Translations under genes and position numbers: made by a program
Shown here: positions 148 through 16,565 of the stretch, piece after piece
Numbering within the stretch: the first letter of the stretch is position 1
How the letters are laid out: each line of letters begins with the position of its first letter
The notes under the pieces: generated by a model
What the model saw: only the letters and a program-made list of their open reading frames with translations
Databases searched by the model: none
Told to the model about the DNA's origin: nothing
Virus record (IMG/VR): IMGVR_UViG_2600254985_000001
Direction: 5' to 3' (one strand)
Source: a virus
Taxonomy: Duplodnaviria > Heunggongvirae > Uroviricota > Caudoviricetes
Length of the DNA stretch: 19,497 nt

Positions 148-319
148 TATTACACAAGTACACAAGGAAGATTAATAGTTCAAAATATCCACGGTCAACA
201 GCTAGAAAGATCGCTAATGACTTGAACAAGAATGACCCTTTTAATAATTATCTAGTGAGCCTTGAGCTTGGCTCTAAAAGGTATATTATTGAAAAATTTG
301 AAATTAGAGGTATGAATAG

Positions 320-601
320 ATGAAACGTTTTTACGTAGAGGAAGACGACAATGGCAAAGAGATTAAGCGAAAACTTACAACTTTTGCTAATGATGATTTA
401 ACACAGCTTTCAGATGATGAGCTAGAAACATTATATTATGAATCATCTGCTCAATTTTTAGCTAAAGCAATGCACTTTATGAAGATTGAGAACGAACTAT
501 TTTCAAGAAAGAATGTAATTGTAAGTGATGAAATTCTAATAAATGTCGGCAATAATATTATTGAAGCTATCAATCAGGTAAGCAAAGGAGAAATCACTTG
601 A
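320..601 (+). CDS. hypothetical early-region protein (93 aa)
   Basis: ORF in the supplied track with an ATG at 320 preceded by AGAGGT about 9 nt upstream. Acidic, helical-looking sequence with no recognisable motif. Confidence 0.55.
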   Translation: MKRFYVEEDDNGKEIKRKLTTFANDDLTQLSDDELETLYYESSAQFLAKAMHFMKIENELFSRKNVIVSDEILINVGNNIIEAINQVSKGEIT

Positions 602-747
602 AGAACAACGAATTAGTGAAAAAAATCAACGAAGAGTTGAAGCTGAAAAACAAGCCTAAGTTGACAGAATCGCAAGAGAACACGATGAGGAAACTTAACG
701 ATCTAATAATAGAGGAAGTCAACATGTTAGTGAAAAAGATGAAGTGA
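598..747 (+). CDS. small lysine-rich hypothetical protein (49 aa, TTG start), absent from the ORF track
   Basis: TTG at 598..600 overlaps the TGA stop (599..601) of the upstream ORF and sits 7 nt after AAAGGAG (584..590). The frame stays open to a TGA at 745..747 and translates to MKNNELVKKINEELKLKNKPKLTESQENTMRKLNDLIIEEVNMLVKKMK. Confidence 0.3.
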   Translation: MKNNELVKKINEELKLKNKPKLTESQENTMRKLNDLIIEEVNMLVKKMK

Positions 748-752
748 TACCG

Positions 753-792
753 AACAAAGAAAGCCCCACAATTAAGTGAGGGCCTTTTTCGT
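753..792. terminator. bidirectional rho-independent terminator between convergent early genes and the endolysin
   Basis: Imperfect hairpin GCCCCAC (763..769) / loop AATTAA / GTGAGGGC (776..783), flanked by an A-rich run upstream (AACAAAGAAA) and CTTTTTC downstream, so a U-tract follows the stem on either transcript. It lies 3 nt beyond the endolysin stop (794..796). Confidence 0.5.
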
Positions 793-793
793 A

Positions 794-1555
794 TTATTTT
801 TTAGCAATGATTGGTTTGTCGATTCCGTTAGCTTGCATGAAACGAATATCAATAGGCGAACCTTTCCAATCGAAGTTTTTAAGGTCTTTGCCAGTTGTTT
901 CTTTATAAGTTTTACGAACAATTGCCAATTGGTCTGGGTGTGATAGAGCGATAACTTTTTCGCCATTAAAGTAGTAAGTTGTTTTATCGCCATTTGTATA
1001 TGTAAATTTCATTAAATCGTCGTCCTCTAATTCTGTATTTGTTTGTGTATTGTTTACTGCGACTGTGCCACTAGTTTGTCCTGTAAGGCGCTTGTTTAGT
1101 TCTGTGATAAAGTATGAGCGACAACTCTCTAACGTGCCTCCGTGTACTTCTACTGAACGTCTAGGGCATGAAGTTGCTGAAAGTTCTTGATGTAGTTTAA
1201 CAGTATCACGATTAGGAGTTAACCCCCATTGTTTCATGTACTTAGCCACGTCATCTAGTACCGCTTGCTCATTTCTCAAGAACTGGTTTAAATCGCCCTC
1301 TGATTGGCATACTTCCCAGCTTGCATAGTTAGCATTACCGTACGAGTTGGCACAATGCCATGCCATATTAGAGAAATCAGAAGCTTGTAATCTTCCGTCA
1401 GAAGCAATGTAGACATGAGCAAAGCCATTTTCAGGGTTATGATTAGGTAACCAGTTGTTGTAGAAGCCAGCGTTAGCACCATTCGAACCAGCGTCATTGT
1501 GAATTACAACCCCAGTAGGGTTATAACCACGTACACCAGCATTAGTTATATTCAT
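794..1555 (-). CDS. endolysin, putative N-acetylmuramoyl-L-alanine amidase (amidase_2/PGRP-like N-terminus)
   Basis: 253-aa ORF immediately downstream of the holin, with an ATGA start/stop overlap. The N-terminal half has His/Cys-containing segments typical of zinc amidases (VVIHNDAGS, AHVYI, MAWHCANSY). It is the last gene of the late operon. Confidence 0.75.
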   Translation of the reverse strand: MNITNAGVRGYNPTGVVIHNDAGSNGANAGFYNNWLPNHNPENGFAHVYIASDGRLQASDFSNMAWHCANSYGNANYASWEVCQSEGDLNQFLRNEQAVLDDVAKYMKQWGLTPNRDTVKLHQELSATSCPRRSVEVHGGTLESCRSYFITELNKRLTGQTSGTVAVNNTQTNTELEDDDLMKFTYTNGDKTTYYFNGEKVIALSHPDQLAIVRKTYKETTGKDLKNFDWKGSPIDIRFMQANGIDKPIIAKK

Positions 1556-1905
1556 TCTTTTTTATCCTCCGTTTGTTCTTCTTCTACTTCTGGAACACTT
1601 ACACCGTTCTTTTTCATAAGTTTAACCAAACCGTCGAACATAGGACTGATTTTTGCGACCAAATAAATAAATTGCCCTACAAAGTACAATAAACCTACGT
1701 CAATCACAGTTTTGGCAATATCAGAAGTTGAGGGAGTTTGTGTAAAGAAGAAGACCGCATATAAAACCCACAGGGATAAAATAACCGTTAAGTCAATCAC
1801 AAGTCTACGTTTGAAAGGTGGGTTCATTGCTTCTCTATCTTTTACCCATGTAGCGAAAAGAATCGCTAAAATTAAGATAGTTATTAAAATCATTCTAGTT
1901 ACCAT
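1552..1905 (-). CDS. holin
   Basis: 117 aa with three predicted transmembrane segments (ILITILILAILFATWV, LVIDLTVILSLWVLYAVFFF, VIDVGLLYFVGQFIYLVA) and a highly charged C-terminus (EVEEEQTEDKKE). Sits directly upstream of and overlapping the endolysin. Confidence 0.75.
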   Translation of the reverse strand: MVTRMILITILILAILFATWVKDREAMNPPFKRRLVIDLTVILSLWVLYAVFFFTQTPSTSDIAKTVIDVGLLYFVGQFIYLVAKISPMFDGLVKLMKKNGVSVPEVEEEQTEDKKE

Positions 1906-1926: not shown

Positions 1927-2886
1927 TTATTTAATGAAGTAACTTCCGTTACCACGTGTTGCAATAGGTGTTTTACCAATATCTGGTCCCCACCAAGTAA
2001 TACTACCGTTTGTGTCTATGTCAATATGGAAAGAAGTCTCATGTCCAGCAAAATGACCAACAATACTTTGAACAACAGCTGGACGAAATTCTTTATCTAC
2101 CCATGGTCCAGACATTTTAATGCCAGCTTTTGTAGTTGATACACTACCAAAGAGTCTAACAATTACTAAATCATCGTTCTTTTTAGTGAATTGCAACTGC
2201 ATACCATTTCCAGTTTGAATTGTCAACATTTGAGTTGGAACATCGATTGTACCTCTAAGTGATATATCATTTGCATTGATTGAACCTTTAAGCGATAAAT
2301 TATTTGCGTTGATTGAACCTTTAAGTGATAAATTATTTGCATTGATTGAATCTTTAAGTGATAAATCGTTTGCGTTGATTGAACCTTTAAGCGATAAATT
2401 ATTTGCATTGATTGAATCTTTAAGTGATAAATCGTTTGCAGAAATACTATCTAAAGTACTAGCCTGAAGAATTGGCTTAATGCTTGTTACACCAGTTCCT
2501 GAAGTCGTAACAACATCAAAACAAACTTTCAAAACGCCAGAACCGTTGTTTATATCAACACCGTTACTATTATTTGATGTTTCTGCTGATAAACTTACAG
2601 GGTTTGCTGTTTGCGTTAAGTCAATATTTGCATGGATATAATTAACTGCATTACCTTTTAAGGCAACAGTTTCATTCAATAGTTCAAAATACCTCCCGCC
2701 TGCAACGATTGATGTGTTAACATATTGCACGTTAAGGGCTGTATTTAATGGACTTTTCCAATCTTTGCGCCTAATTGTTCTATAGCCCATTCCAGTCAAC
2801 ATCATGTATAGTTTTCCGTCATTATTAGAACCGACTGGAAACTCTGTACCATTTGGACTGAAAAACGTGAAGTTTTTAATTGTCAT
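1927..2886 (-). CDS. rbp: receptor-binding protein (RBP, 936/p2-type) with a repeat-expanded neck
   Basis: 319-aa ORF in the RBP position (last structural gene before the holin). Its N-terminus ([11 protein letters not shown]...) and C-terminal region are consistent with my recollection of p2-type RBP shoulder and head domains. AAAGG ribosome-binding site 7 nt upstream of the ATG at 2884..2886. Confidence 0.8.
2239..2451 (-). repeat. in-frame 33-bp tandem repeats (about 6 units) encoding 11-aa units [11 protein letters not shown] / [11 protein letters not shown] within the RBP
   Basis: Directly visible: near-identical 33-bp units repeated head-to-tail. The translated RBP reads ...[68 protein letters not shown]... 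(residues about 146..216). Confidence 0.9.
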
Positions 2887-15448: not shown

Positions 15449-16565
15449 CTGTGCTTGTTACGTCCTTTCTATTGCCTTGTAAATCACTTAGGTTTTTAAC
15501 AGCAACTGCGTTAAGGTTTGTGACATAAATATCTCCGCCCTCGATTGGTTGCTCGCCCATTTTAACAAGAAGTTGATTCTGTGTAAAAATAGGAGCGTTG
15601 ATATTTTCGTGATACAAGTCAATTAATTCTTTCAAAGTTGCAAACTTGAATAGCTGGTTATCTACGATTATGCGTTCATAATATAAATTATCCTTAACTA
15701 CTCGTCTGCGGTTTGTTGAAATCAGTTTATAAGTCAGTTCCTTTTCAAGTTGAATCAGTAAAGGAATGATAGTAGAGTTATAAAAATAAATTTGTTGTTC
15801 TTGCGTAGCAGTACCAAGCAAAATATTTTCATTCATAAAGTAGCCTGTCAAAAGTTCCGATTTAATAAGGTCAATTTCATCTTTGTTTAAAACGGAATAA
15901 TCTTTTTTAAGTTCTACAATTTCCGTCTTGTTATCAACTGGTGTCAAACCATTGTAACTCGAACCCTCTTGCATGTTCTTTATTGTTGTTAAGGCTTTTT
16001 CTCGATACTCTTGCGTATTATCAATATCAAGAAAGGCATTAATTTTCAACAAGCCACGCAATTTACCTTGTTCCAGCTTAGTTTGAATACTAGCTAGAGC
16101 ATTATCTAAAATACTTGTATCCTCATTGATATAAAAAGGACTGATAAGCCTTACTAATTCTTCAGGTTTATATTCTTTTTTATCGTTAGCAAATAGTAGG
16201 TCTAATAGATCTCCTGTTTCACTATCAAATATAGGGTACAGGTCAACATAGCGCGTGCATAGCAACTTTTTAATTACTTTCTGCCAAAACTCCATGCTAT
16301 TGTGTTCGCCCTTAGAACTCCAGTTTAGAACCTCGTCTAAGTCAGAACCTGCCATACTAATCAAAGTATCAGAACCAACATCAGACTTTTTATATTTAAC
16401 ATGATTAAATTCTACTTTTGTTATTTCATTAGCGATTTTATTATGAATGTTAGTCACAAAGGCACTTGTATATTCTACCGCTTCGTTTTGCCACGCTGTA
16501 ACTCTTTGAGTATCATTGTTTAGCTTTCCACGTGAAAATGATACCACTTTTCCGAATAAGTTCAA
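15429..16565 (-). CDS. portal protein
   Basis: 378-aa ORF between the terminase/HNH genes and the protease gene. Assigned by synteny and size. Confidence 0.7.
   Translation of the reverse strand: MNLFGKVVSFSRGKLNNDTQRVTAWQNEAVEYTSAFVTNIHNKIANEITKVEFNHVKYKKSDVGSDTLISMAGSDLDEVLNWSSKGEHNSMEFWQKVIKKLLCTRYVDLYPIFDSETGDLLDLLFANDKKEYKPEELVRLISPFYINEDTSILDNALASIQTKLEQGKLRGLLKINAFLDIDNTQEYREKALTTIKNMQEGSSYNGLTPVDNKTEIVELKKDYSVLNKDEIDLIKSELLTGYFMNENILLGTATQEQQIYFYNSTIIPLLIQLEKELTYKLISTNRRRVVKDNLYYERIIVDNQLFKFATLKELIDLYHENINAPIFTQNQLLVKMGEQPIEGGDIYVTNLNAVAVKNLSDLQGNRKDVTSTDETNNQ

What the first reader, a model, noticed from the sequence alone, without database searches (positions are those of the whole stretch)
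598..747. Unannotated 49-aa lysine-rich ORF with a TTG start overlapping the upstream stop
A well-spaced AAAGGAG precedes TTG at 598, and the frame runs to 747. It was missed by the ORF track, presumably because of the non-ATG start and small size. Small basic early proteins in phages are often host-takeover or regulatory factors, but this could be a chance ORF.
Basis: seen in the sequence. Interest (0 to 1): 0.2.

Follow-up and report, generated by a model that had tools for sequence, protein, structure and literature searches.

The report
Small gene outliving its host gene
The 49-codon ORF is real and very probably a genuine small accessory gene of lactococcal 936-type phages. It is written in a second reading frame of an early cell-wall-enzyme gene and survives here although that enzyme gene has decayed around it.

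Summary
TTG 598 to TGA 745-747 encodes 49 aa (11 Lys, pI 9.6). AAAGGAG sits 7 nt upstream, and the upstream gene's TGA overlaps the start (TTGA).

The window is a Lactococcus Skunavirus. The ORF is the last cistron of the early operon, directly before the bidirectional terminator shared with the lysin gene. It is already filed as a hypothetical protein (phrog_26701) and is annotated in some relatives (RH13, CaseusJM1) but not in others (p2, sk1, 96603).

In full-length relatives (P008, Phi44) this DNA lies inside the linker of an early SLT-type transglycosylase gene, read in another frame. In the window that gene is destroyed by deletions on both sides and by two stop codons, while the embedded ORF is intact.

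Substitution patterns favour the 49-aa frame. An overlap-aware dN/dS is 0.36 for the embedded frame against 0.81 for the transglycosylase frame, whereas a mock-frame control in the catalytic domain gives 1.04 against 0.23. In the 49-aa clade, 10 of 13 variable sites are synonymous.

The gene is accessory: it is truncated or deleted in about half of sampled relatives. AlphaFold predicts a helix-loop-helix. The function is unknown.

The parts
584..590 (+). Shine-Dalgarno AAAGGAG, 7 nt upstream of the TTG start
   Evidence: Sequence. The 7-nt complementarity to the anti-SD equals the best real genes in the window. It is one of only four AAGGAG hexamers in the 19.5 kb on both strands, and the only one followed by an ORF longer than 2 codons. 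TAAGGAG/AAAGGAG plus TTG is present in all 55 ORF22-anchored relatives (loci found through the upstream-gene homologue) that keep the region, apart from one with AAGGCG and two with CTG. The whole 5' 90 nt of the transglycosylase gene is highly conserved at DNA level, so this conservation is not specific evidence.
598..747 (+). 49-aa ORF (TTG start, TGA stop), member of phrog_26701. Predicted helix(2-17)-loop-helix(24-48), basic
   Evidence: ORF. PHROG hit E=2.2e-33 over the full length. The identical protein is encoded in p2, sk1 and Phi44. AF2 pLDDT 90.4. Frame-specific excess of synonymous change.
320..601 (+). Upstream early gene (homologue of p2 ORF22, phrog_1430). Its TGA (599-601) overlaps the TTG, so translational coupling is possible
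   Evidence: In RH13 the same gene stops 15 nt earlier, at a TAA inside the SD (T instead of A at 584).
582..698 (+). Transglycosylase-frame relic. Only 25 codons are open (AKEKSLEEQRISEKNQRRVEAEKQA), then TAA at 657-659 and a second TAA at 696-698. This frame's codon position 1 is the small ORF's position 3
   Evidence: frame translation; stop sites; alignment with p2, Phi44 and P008, where Phi44 and P008 read GAA at both sites.
576..585 (.). 5' deletion junction. The end of the ORF22 homologue (CAGGTAAGCAA) is joined to the transglycosylase sequence (AGGCAAGCTAAGGAG in p2). The start and first ~23 codons of the transglycosylase gene are removed, while the SD and TTG are kept
   Evidence: Alignment A3; p2 sequence. 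The reading as recombination through the short AGG(T/C)AAGC microhomology is my inference.
756..757 (.). 3' deletion junction, 9 nt after the ORF's stop codon (GATACCGAACA|AAGAAAGCCCC). The rest of the linker and the whole SLT catalytic domain are removed
   Evidence: Alignment A3. Phi44 continues ...GAACA|TAGCAA into the catalytic domain.
763..789 (.). Bidirectional intrinsic terminator hairpin (GCCCCAC-AATTAA-GTGAGGGC) with a T-run at 785-789. It is shared by the early operon (+) and the lysin gene (-)
   Evidence: RNA fold of 745-800: dG -16.6 kcal/mol, z = -4.85. The terminator scan finds it on the - strand. The sk1 record annotates the homologous site as 'putative bidirectional terminator'.

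Best explanation
The ORF at 598-747 is a genuine but accessory small protein gene of Skunavirus (936-type) lactococcal phages.

Shown:
- It is the promoter-distal cistron of the early operon, directly upstream of the early/late bidirectional terminator.
- It has a strong SD (AAAGGAG, 7-nt spacer) and a TTG start that overlaps the upstream gene's stop.
- In full-length relatives the same ORF (49 aa, or a 69-aa version with the same first ~36 residues) is embedded out of frame in the E/K/R/Q-rich linker of an early SLT-type transglycosylase gene.
- Inside that overlap the signature of purifying selection sits on the small ORF's frame, and the transglycosylase frame evolves almost neutrally.
- In the window's lineage the transglycosylase gene has been destroyed by a 5' deletion, a 3' deletion and two stop codons, while the small ORF, its SD and its stop are spared by margins of a few bases.

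Inferred:
- The gene arose by overprinting on a low-constraint linker, because it has no relatives anywhere else.
- It became independent of its parent gene, so its function does not require the transglycosylase.
- It is translated by independent SD-directed initiation, possibly helped here by termination-reinitiation coupling.
- The product is a 5.9-kDa basic helix-loop-helix. It most likely acts stoichiometrically, by binding another macromolecule during early infection. This last step is speculation (about 0.25).

The gene is dispensable, since many natural phages lack it.
For: Context:
- Window = Skunavirus.
- The transglycosylase is the last early ORF of 936 phages (PMC6105707). P008 orf23 hits Pfam SLT and phrog_3874.

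Embedding:
- P008 (L069): transglycosylase 1144..1680, with the 69-aa ORF at 1226..1435.
- Phi44 (L070): transglycosylase 1144..1671, with the identical 49-aa ORF at 1226..1375.

Selection in 30 unique transglycosylase-intact genes:
- NG86 pN/pS in the overlap is 0.38 (small-ORF frame), 1.13 (transglycosylase frame) and 0.92 (third frame).
- In the catalytic domain it is 1.64, 0.22 and 1.72 for the same frames.
- The OLGenie-style estimate gives dNN/dNS = 0.36 for the small ORF (bootstrap 95% CI 0.24-0.54) and dNN/dSN = 0.81 for the transglycosylase (0.51-1.26).
- The mock-frame control in the catalytic domain gives 1.04 and 0.23.

Permutation tests controlled for composition and mutation spectrum:
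- 49-aa clade: 10 of 13 variable sites are synonymous in the ORF frame against 4.3-4.6 expected (p = 2e-4 to 2e-3).
- Pooled codons 1-36 (32 DNA-retrieved haplotypes): 25 of 49 against 15 expected (p = 3e-4 to 8e-4).
- No other of the six frames is consistently significant.

Retention after loss of the host gene:
- Six different nonsense sites hit the transglycosylase frame. Four are silent in the ORF and two are conservative (M30I, E39D).
- The ORF is intact in transglycosylase-decayed loci (examples: L196-198, L200, L237, L238, L257, L264, L273; L048/L053).
- The deletion junctions hug the ORF.

Initiation and product:
- SD quality. Terminator.
- AF2 gives two helices at pLDDT 90; the 69-aa form gives three helices.
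Against: - I recall that Lemay et al. 2019 (Mol Cell Proteomics 18:704) reported an unannotated conserved small p2 protein, pORFN1, but the paper is not held. I could not check whether it is this ORF.
- ORF length is not unusual for this frame of a purine-rich linker (P = 0.04-0.36).
- Conservation of the SD and TTG is no stronger than that of the surrounding 90 nt.
- The count-based signal in the 69-aa clade is modest (46 synonymous against 34 expected, p = 0.009-0.011). The C-terminal part is poorly conserved.
- The ORF is cut to 10-25 codons in several phages with an intact transglycosylase. It is truncated or wholly deleted in others.
- There are no homologues outside this locus among 1.84 billion representative proteins. 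There is no Pfam or fold match, so no function can be assigned.
- Sequences are phylogenetically related, so pairwise and bootstrap statistics overstate independence.
Confidence: 0.75

Rival explanations
1. Non-functional relic. The ORF is only the second-frame reading of a decayed transglycosylase linker. It is open because the E/K/Q/R-rich sequence seldom creates stops in that frame, and the SD/TTG are simply the codons K-E-K-A-L-E of the old gene.
For: - Codon shuffles keep the frame open at least as long in 4-36% of trials.
- SD/TTG conservation is no better than that of the neighbouring third positions.
- ORF length ranges from 10 to 79 codons across transglycosylase-intact phages.
- The region is deleted outright in about a quarter of relatives.
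- It is an orphan family with no outside homologues.
Against: - Frame-specific synonymous excess appears in three partly independent data sets, with composition and spectrum control and a six-frame comparison.
- The OLGenie-style ratio is 0.36, with a clean mock-frame control of 1.04.
- The transglycosylase frame itself looks neutral in the overlap, so constraint from that frame cannot produce the pattern.
- Both deletions in the window spare SD, ORF and stop by 0-9 nt.
Confidence: 0.14
2. The selected reading frame is the antisense 'shadow' ORF on the minus strand (594..725, 43 aa, ATG start, F/L/S-rich). It shares third codon positions with the 49-aa ORF.
For: The ORF exists. Its third positions coincide with those of the plus-strand ORF. 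In the 49-aa clade it shows a correlated synonymous excess (8 of 12 against 4.2 expected, p = 0.01).
Against: - It is not significant in the pooled set (15 of 48 against 13.1, p = 0.29) or in the 69-aa clade (39 of 133 against 34.2, p = 0.18), whereas the plus-strand ORF is significant in all three.
- There is no SD before its ATG (sequence).
- It lies downstream of the lysin terminator on the late strand and antisense to the early operon.
- Its composition is the typical mirror image of purine-rich coding DNA.
Confidence: 0.02
3. The frame is reached by ribosomal frameshifting (+1) from the transglycosylase frame, giving a fusion of the transglycosylase N-terminus with the small ORF's sequence, rather than by independent initiation.
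For: Natural DNA-level fusions of exactly this kind exist as called proteins (P0013, P0014). In p2 the N-terminal remnant (ORF21) overlaps the small ORF by 62 nt.
Against:
- The small ORF's frame has a stop 8 codons upstream of the TTG in relatives.
- I saw no classical slippery heptamer by reading the sequence.
- A strong SD sits at the ideal distance from the TTG.
Confidence: 0.03
4. The segment is kept as a cis-acting RNA or DNA element (a 3' stabiliser of the early mRNA, or a spacer before the terminator), not for its protein.
For: It is the 3' end of the early transcript, next to a strong terminator hairpin. The 5' part of the region is unusually conserved at DNA level.
Against: - Variation is phased with codon position 3 of one frame, which an RNA element does not predict.
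- Rfam gives no credible match; the only hit is Thr_leader at 24.5 bits against a 55-bit gathering threshold, on the terminator.
- Many phages delete the segment and join the upstream gene directly to a terminator.
Confidence: 0.03

Closest known systems
phrog_26701, and GenBank 'hypothetical protein' entries (CaseusJM1 gp22 YP_009874404.1/AGE60658.1; PhiF0139 gp23; FB3 QPL22144.1; RH13_23 UXE01540.1)
   Same: Identical or nearly identical 49-aa sequence with a full-length profile match (E = 2.2e-33) at the same genomic position.
   Different: Nothing differs in sequence. Those entries carry no function, and none of the annotated records I opened shows both genes at this site: RH13 lists only the small ORF, while P008 and Phi44 list only the transglycosylase.
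Skunavirus early SLT-type lytic transglycosylase (P008 orf23, bIBB29 gp22, phrog_3874; p2 ORF21 is its N-terminal stump, phrog_3775)
   Same: The window's 582-756 is homologous DNA to the linker of this gene.
   Different: The window lacks the gene's start, its first ~23 codons and the whole catalytic domain, and has two stops in that frame. The ORF under study is read in a different frame and shares no residues with the enzyme.
Embedded same-strand overlapping phage genes such as lambda Rz1 inside Rz, or phiX174 E inside D (from established knowledge)
   Same: A short ORF with its own RBS lies wholly inside a longer gene in another frame on the same strand (seen in P008 and Phi44). Selection is detectable on the embedded frame.
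   Different: Rz and Rz1 work together and are kept together. Here the embedded ORF is retained in many lineages after the host gene is destroyed, so its function appears independent. It sits in a near-neutral linker, not in a constrained domain.
pORFN1 of phage p2 (Lemay et al. 2019, Mol Cell Proteomics 18:704; recalled from memory, paper not held)
   Same: As I recall, it is described as a conserved small p2 protein from an unannotated gene, found by proteomics. The ORF studied here is present and unannotated in p2 at GQ979703 complement 15862..16011. It is annotated in the later OP4519xx genomes from a Canadian cheese plant; I believe, from memory, that these come from the same laboratory.
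   Different: Identity is not verified. I could not read the paper, and full-text searches for ORFN1 found nothing relevant.
Small helical early phage peptides that bind host proteins, such as lambda Kil (47 aa) and T7 Gp0.4 (51 aa) (analogy from knowledge only)
   Same: Similar size, early expression, predicted helix-loop-helix, dispensable.
   Different: There is no sequence or fold similarity to anything and no functional data. This is an analogy, not a classification.

Membership tests
phrog_26701 (Skunavirus 49-aa hypothetical protein) | Significant full-length match to the family profile | tested here: met
   E = 2.2e-33, residues 1-49 on profile positions 1-49 of 49. The exact sequence is held in NCBI under CaseusJM1, PhiF0139 and FB3.
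Embedded (overprinted) same-strand overlapping gene | The ORF lies inside another protein-coding gene in a different frame | tested here: met
   Met in relatives: P008 (L069 1226..1435 inside 1144..1680) and Phi44 (L070 1226..1375 inside 1144..1671). In the window itself the host gene is only a relic.
Embedded (overprinted) same-strand overlapping gene | Purifying selection on the embedded frame, separable from the host frame | tested here: met
   dNN/dNS = 0.36 (CI 0.24-0.54), against a mock-frame control of 1.04. Permutation p = 2e-4 to 1e-2 in three data sets, and no other of the six frames is consistently significant.
Embedded (overprinted) same-strand overlapping gene | Own translation initiation signals | tested here: met
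   AAAGGAG or TAAGGAG, a 7-nt spacer and TTG. This is sequence-level evidence only.
Embedded (overprinted) same-strand overlapping gene | Product detected in infected cells | not testable with these tools
   No Ribo-seq or MS data are accessible. The Lemay 2019 paper is not held.
SLT lytic transglycosylase (Pfam PF01464), for the DNA read in the other frame | Presence of the SLT catalytic domain in an open frame | tested here: not met
   In the window only 25 codons of that frame are open and the catalytic domain is deleted. The intact relative P008 orf23 scores 21.5 bits against a 21.3-bit cut-off and matches phrog_3874 at E = 1.5e-98.
Known small host-takeover or regulatory phage proteins (any Pfam, PDB or BFVD family) | Sequence or fold similarity to a characterised family | tested here: not met
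   Pfam: nothing below E = 0.04. BFVD best E = 7.7. PDB best E = 3.9. The HMM search of 1.84 billion representatives found only proteins from this same locus.
pORFN1 of phage p2 (Lemay et al. 2019) | Same coordinates or sequence as the published ORFN1 | not testable with these tools
   Paper not held. The supplements of the follow-up paper PMC7472136 do not list it.

The most novel reading that the evidence does not exclude
Skunavirus genomes preserve a visible series of gene birth by overprinting followed by emancipation. A new small gene arose in the second frame of the near-neutral linker of an early transglycosylase. It then became the only selected reading of that DNA, and in several lineages it survives as a free-standing gene after repeated, independent destruction of its parent. 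The intermediates (intact parent plus embedded ORF; parent cut by nonsense mutations that are silent in the ORF; parent trimmed away on both sides) are all present among sequenced phages.
Probability: 0.45. Interest if true: 0.6.

Novelty: new member of a known kind. Interest (0 to 1): 0.4.

Why it matters
- Annotation: records of these dairy phages treat this site inconsistently. p2 and sk1 omit the ORF. Others call only the transglycosylase or its stump, and one record labels the stump 'bidirectional terminator'. A consistent call would add one small early gene to the Skunavirus pan-genome.
- Biology: if the selection signal holds, this is a compact natural example of an overprinted gene that outlives its parent gene. 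The model phage p2 is editable by CRISPR, so the case can be tested directly.
- Side observation: the early transglycosylase is knocked out again and again in nature, which is worth explaining in its own right.
- Limit: the finding does not reveal a new mechanism, and the protein's function remains unknown.

Tried and rejected
1. Reading Lemay et al. 2019 to test whether pORFN1 is this ORF. The paper is not held under its PMC id, DOI or PMID. Searches for ORFN1 and related phrases gave nothing relevant. The supplements of PMC7472136 list neither the peptides nor ORFN1.
2. Function by homology. Pfam gave only sub-threshold noise. PHROGs gave only an unknown-function family. The HMM search of 1.84 billion representatives found only same-locus proteins. 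Foldseek against BFVD and PDB found nothing.
3. ORF openness as evidence. Rejected after codon shuffling.
4. SD/TTG conservation and rare-codon use (AAG GAG) as evidence. Rejected, because the whole 5' 90 nt is equally conserved.
5. Antisense shadow ORF 594..725(-). Considered because its third positions coincide with the ORF's. The six-frame test favours the plus-strand ORF.
6. RNA element. Rfam gave only a sub-threshold hit on the terminator.
7. A first NG86 run used a start that was off by one and so mislabelled the frames. It was corrected.
8. The exact-match search for the terminator core, used as an unbiased anchor, mostly returned unrelated contigs. An anchor on the upstream gene worked better.

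Full report
**1. Observation**

The window reads TTG at 598-600, and the frame is open to TGA at 745-747. The product is 49 aa, MKNNELVKKINEELKLKNKPKLTESQENTMRKLNDLIIEEVNMLVKKMK. AAAGGAG lies at 584-590, 7 nt before the TTG. The upstream ORF 320..601 ends with TGA at 599-601, so stop and start overlap as TTGA. The protein is 5.87 kDa with pI 9.57 and 11 Lys, 1 Arg, 7 Glu and 1 Asp. The 7-nt match to the anti-SD is as good as the best real genes in the window. The description is therefore correct.

**2. Where we are**

The window is the reverse complement of the left 19.5 kb of a Lactococcus Skunavirus (936-type) genome.
- Best matches are JG7 at 98.4% over the whole window, and RH13 and 96603 at 99.5% over the first 1.6 kb.
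- On the minus strand run the late genes, ending with holin (1552..1905) and endolysin (794..1555).
- On the plus strand the window starts at the tail of the early operon.
- Between the ORF's stop and the lysin's stop lies a strong hairpin at 763-783 with a T-run on each side (dG -16.6 kcal/mol, z -4.85). The sk1 record annotates the homologous site as a bidirectional terminator.
- The ORF is thus the last cistron of the early transcript.

**3. Annotation status**

The exact protein is already in public databases as a hypothetical protein, and it is PHROG family phrog_26701, of unknown function.
- Database entries: CaseusJM1 gp22, PhiF0139 gp23, FB3 and RH13_23.
- The PHROG match has E = 2e-33 over the full length.
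- Other records leave the ORF out, although they encode the identical 49 residues: 96603, p2 and sk1, and jj50 and fd13.
- 'Unannotated' is therefore a property of some records, not of the gene family.

**4. The twist**

In p2 the ORF (L004 1129..1278) overlaps the annotated ORF21 (999..1190) by 62 nt in another frame. ORF21 is only the N-terminal stump of a larger gene.
- In P008 (orf23, 178 aa) and Phi44 (175 aa), the DNA homologous to window ~573-756 lies inside a 'transglycosylase' gene.
- That gene has a conserved N-terminal ~30 residues, a variable E/K/R/Q-rich linker, and a C-terminal SLT-like domain (Pfam SLT at the cut-off; phrog_3874 E = 1.5e-98).
- The literature describes this gene as the last early ORF of 936 phages (PMC6105707).
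- The small ORF is embedded in the linker, shifted so that its codon position 3 is the transglycosylase's position 1.
- It occurs as the identical 49-aa form (Phi44) or as a 69-aa form with the same first ~36 residues (P008).

In the window the transglycosylase gene is a ruin.
- A 5' deletion joins the end of the upstream gene to the sequence just before the SD. The junction lies within 576-585.
- Only 25 codons of the transglycosylase frame are open. TAA codons stand at 657-659 and 696-698, where Phi44 and P008 have GAA.
- A 3' deletion begins 9 nt after the small ORF's stop and runs to the terminator, removing the catalytic domain.
- What remains is almost exactly SD + ORF + terminator.

**5. 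Gene or relic?**

*Weak evidence, set aside.*
- Openness: shuffling the linker's codons leaves this frame open at least as long in 4-36% of trials.
- SD/TTG conservation: the whole first 90 nt of the transglycosylase gene is equally conserved, third positions included.

*Substitution pattern, 49-aa clade.*
- The 32 loci give 14 haplotypes with 14 variable sites. Eleven are at the ORF's third position. One is a synonymous Leu first position, one changes TGA to TAA in the stop codon, and one gives N42S.
- Counted by effect within the 49 codons (13 sites, leaving out the stop-codon change), 10 are synonymous and 3 are conservative replacements (M30I, E39D, N42S).
- In the transglycosylase frame 13 of 14 are non-synonymous, including six different nonsense sites.
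- With mutations re-placed on sites of the same base, and the same base change, the ORF frame has 10 of 13 synonymous against 4.3-4.6 expected (p = 2e-4 to 2e-3). The other two plus-strand frames show no excess.

*Substitution pattern, transglycosylase-intact genes.*

NG86 pN/pS in 30 unique intact 178-aa genes carrying the 69-aa form:

| Region | Small-ORF frame | Transglycosylase frame | Third frame |
|---|---|---|---|
| Codons 1-27 (before the overlap) | 0.99 | 0.30 | 0.75 |
| Overlap | 0.38 | 1.13 | 0.92 |
| First 36 ORF codons | 0.24 | 1.98 | 0.58 |
| Catalytic domain | 1.64 | 0.22 | 1.72 |

An OLGenie-style estimate separates the two frames:

| Region | Small ORF, dNN/dNS (95% CI) | Transglycosylase, dNN/dSN (95% CI) |
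|---|---|---|
| Overlap | 0.36 (0.24-0.54) | 0.81 (0.51-1.26) |
| Catalytic domain, mock frame | 1.04 (0.65-1.68) | 0.23 (0.16-0.32) |

*Further tests.*
- The count-based permutation in the 69-aa clade is weaker but agrees: 46 synonymous of 133 against 34 expected, p = 0.009-0.011.
- Pooling codons 1-36 over 32 DNA-retrieved haplotypes gives 25 of 49 against 15 expected, p = 3e-4 to 8e-4.
- A six-frame comparison was needed because the antisense ORF 594..725(-) shares third positions with the ORF. That frame is significant only in the 49-aa clade (p = 0.01) and not in the other two sets, while the plus-strand ORF is significant in all three.

I conclude that the small ORF's frame carries the main protein-level constraint in this stretch. 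The transglycosylase frame is merely kept open there, when it is kept at all.

**6. Retention and loss**

I sampled relatives in ways that do not depend on the small ORF.
- Anchored on the transglycosylase catalytic domain (80 loci), the ORF from the conserved TTG ranges from 10 to 79 codons. The short forms (10-25 codons) occur in divergent genes with linker deletions.
- Anchored on the upstream gene (80 loci):
  - 21 loci have the 69-aa form and 13 have a 49-codon ORF (12 of the window's type; one, L268, is a divergent shortened variant).
  - 10 have lengths of 33-65 codons and 11 have 15-25 codons.
  - About 24 have lost the region altogether, with the upstream gene joined directly to a terminator by several different junctions. 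CHPC362 is an example, and R31 and 96403 keep only 15-16 codons.
- Among phages whose transglycosylase is destroyed, many keep the full ORF: p2, sk1, the window's type, L237, L238, L257, L264, L273 and L048/L053. Some have lost it through larger deletions.

The gene is therefore accessory and not core. Where only the transglycosylase is hit, the hits are of kinds that spare the ORF.

**7. Product and function**

- AlphaFold predicts helix 2-17, a loop around Pro20, and helix 24-48 (pLDDT 90.4, pTM 0.45). The 69-aa form adds a third helix (pLDDT 82.6).
- Both long helices are amphipathic.
- Nothing similar is found in Pfam, BFVD or PDB.
- A profile search of 1.84 billion representative proteins finds only proteins from this same locus. 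Two of them are natural frameshift fusions of the transglycosylase N-terminus to the small ORF's C-terminus.
- The ORF survives loss of the transglycosylase, so its role does not depend on that enzyme. This differs from the Rz/Rz1 pair.
- My best guess is a stoichiometric binder acting early in infection. This is inference only, at about 0.25.

**8. Mechanism of expression**

This section is inferred. The ORF is transcribed as the 3' end of the early polycistronic mRNA. Translation starts at the TTG, directed by the strong SD. In the window the upstream gene's stop overlaps the start (TTGA), which allows coupling. In RH13 the upstream gene instead stops at a TAA inside the SD.

Frameshifting from the transglycosylase frame is unlikely. 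It is impossible in the window, where that gene's 5' end is gone.

**9. Comparison with known things, and novelty**

- The ORF is a member of phrog_26701. As a predicted protein it is already known.
- As a kind of feature it is an embedded same-strand overlapping gene, a class well known in phages (Rz1 in Rz, E in D).
- None of the annotated records I opened shows both genes at this site.
- The papers I could read mention neither the overlap with the transglycosylase gene nor the selection switching to the embedded frame.
- Nor do they mention the ORF's survival after repeated loss of the parent gene.
- I recall that a proteomic study of p2 (Lemay et al. 2019) reported a conserved small protein, pORFN1, from an unannotated gene. 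It may be this ORF, but I could not verify that.

**10. Verdict**

The ORF is real and very probably coding (about 0.75-0.85). It is accessory and of unknown function. It is an ordinary small phage gene in most respects, with an instructive evolutionary setting. Interest is moderate (0.4), and I class it as a new member of a known kind.

Noticed in passing
window 618, 627, 657, 687, 696, 714 (and homologous sites in L004-L024): Six different nonsense mutations of the transglycosylase frame occur among only 14 haplotypes of this 150-nt stretch, besides several independent deletions. The early transglycosylase is knocked out repeatedly in nature, which suggests its loss is neutral or even favoured on some hosts.
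   Followed up: partly
window 765-783; loci L153-L195: The terminator core CCCCACAATTAAGTGAGGG occurs exactly in 43 IMG/VR contigs. Many have unrelated flanks and much larger genomes (up to 133 kb). This looks like a widely shared or convergent terminator hairpin.
   Followed up: no
L150 589..750 (KY554761 R31_022): The phage R31 record names a protein-coding CDS 'bidirectional terminator'. It is the N-terminal stump of the transglycosylase gene, so this is an annotation error.
   Followed up: partly
protein P0007 (69 aa): The 69-aa form of the small protein is filed in NCBI under 'Pseudomonas sp. TAD18' on a 10.5-kb contig. This is most likely lactococcal phage contamination of that assembly.
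   Followed up: no
proteins P0013 (74 aa) and P0014 (112 aa): Natural frameshift mutants fuse the transglycosylase N-terminus to the C-terminal part of the small ORF's frame. Gene callers report these as single proteins.
   Followed up: partly
window 2241-2440 (inside ORF 1927..2886, minus strand): A 33-nt unit is repeated about 6 times (86% matches), giving the repeated peptide ...[11 protein letters not shown]... in the receptor-binding-protein gene (labelled so in RH13 and 96603).
   Followed up: no
window 222..323 (+): A 33-aa TTG ORF ends in ATGA, overlapping the start of the next gene. It is conserved in p2 (L004 574..675, one residue different) but not annotated there, while the sk1 record annotates an ORF22 at this position. 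It may be another inconsistently annotated small early gene.
   Followed up: no
window 594..725 (-): An antisense 43-aa F/L/S-rich ATG ORF mirrors the 49-aa ORF and shares its third codon positions. It has no SD and gives a weaker, inconsistent selection signal. I judge it a shadow ORF.
   Followed up: yes
L201-L267 (loci without the region): At least three different terminator hairpins (cores CCCCACAATTAAGTGAGGG, ACCACCAATTAAGGTGG and AACAGCTATAAAGCTGT) occupy the early/late junction in different Skunavirus lineages.
   Followed up: no
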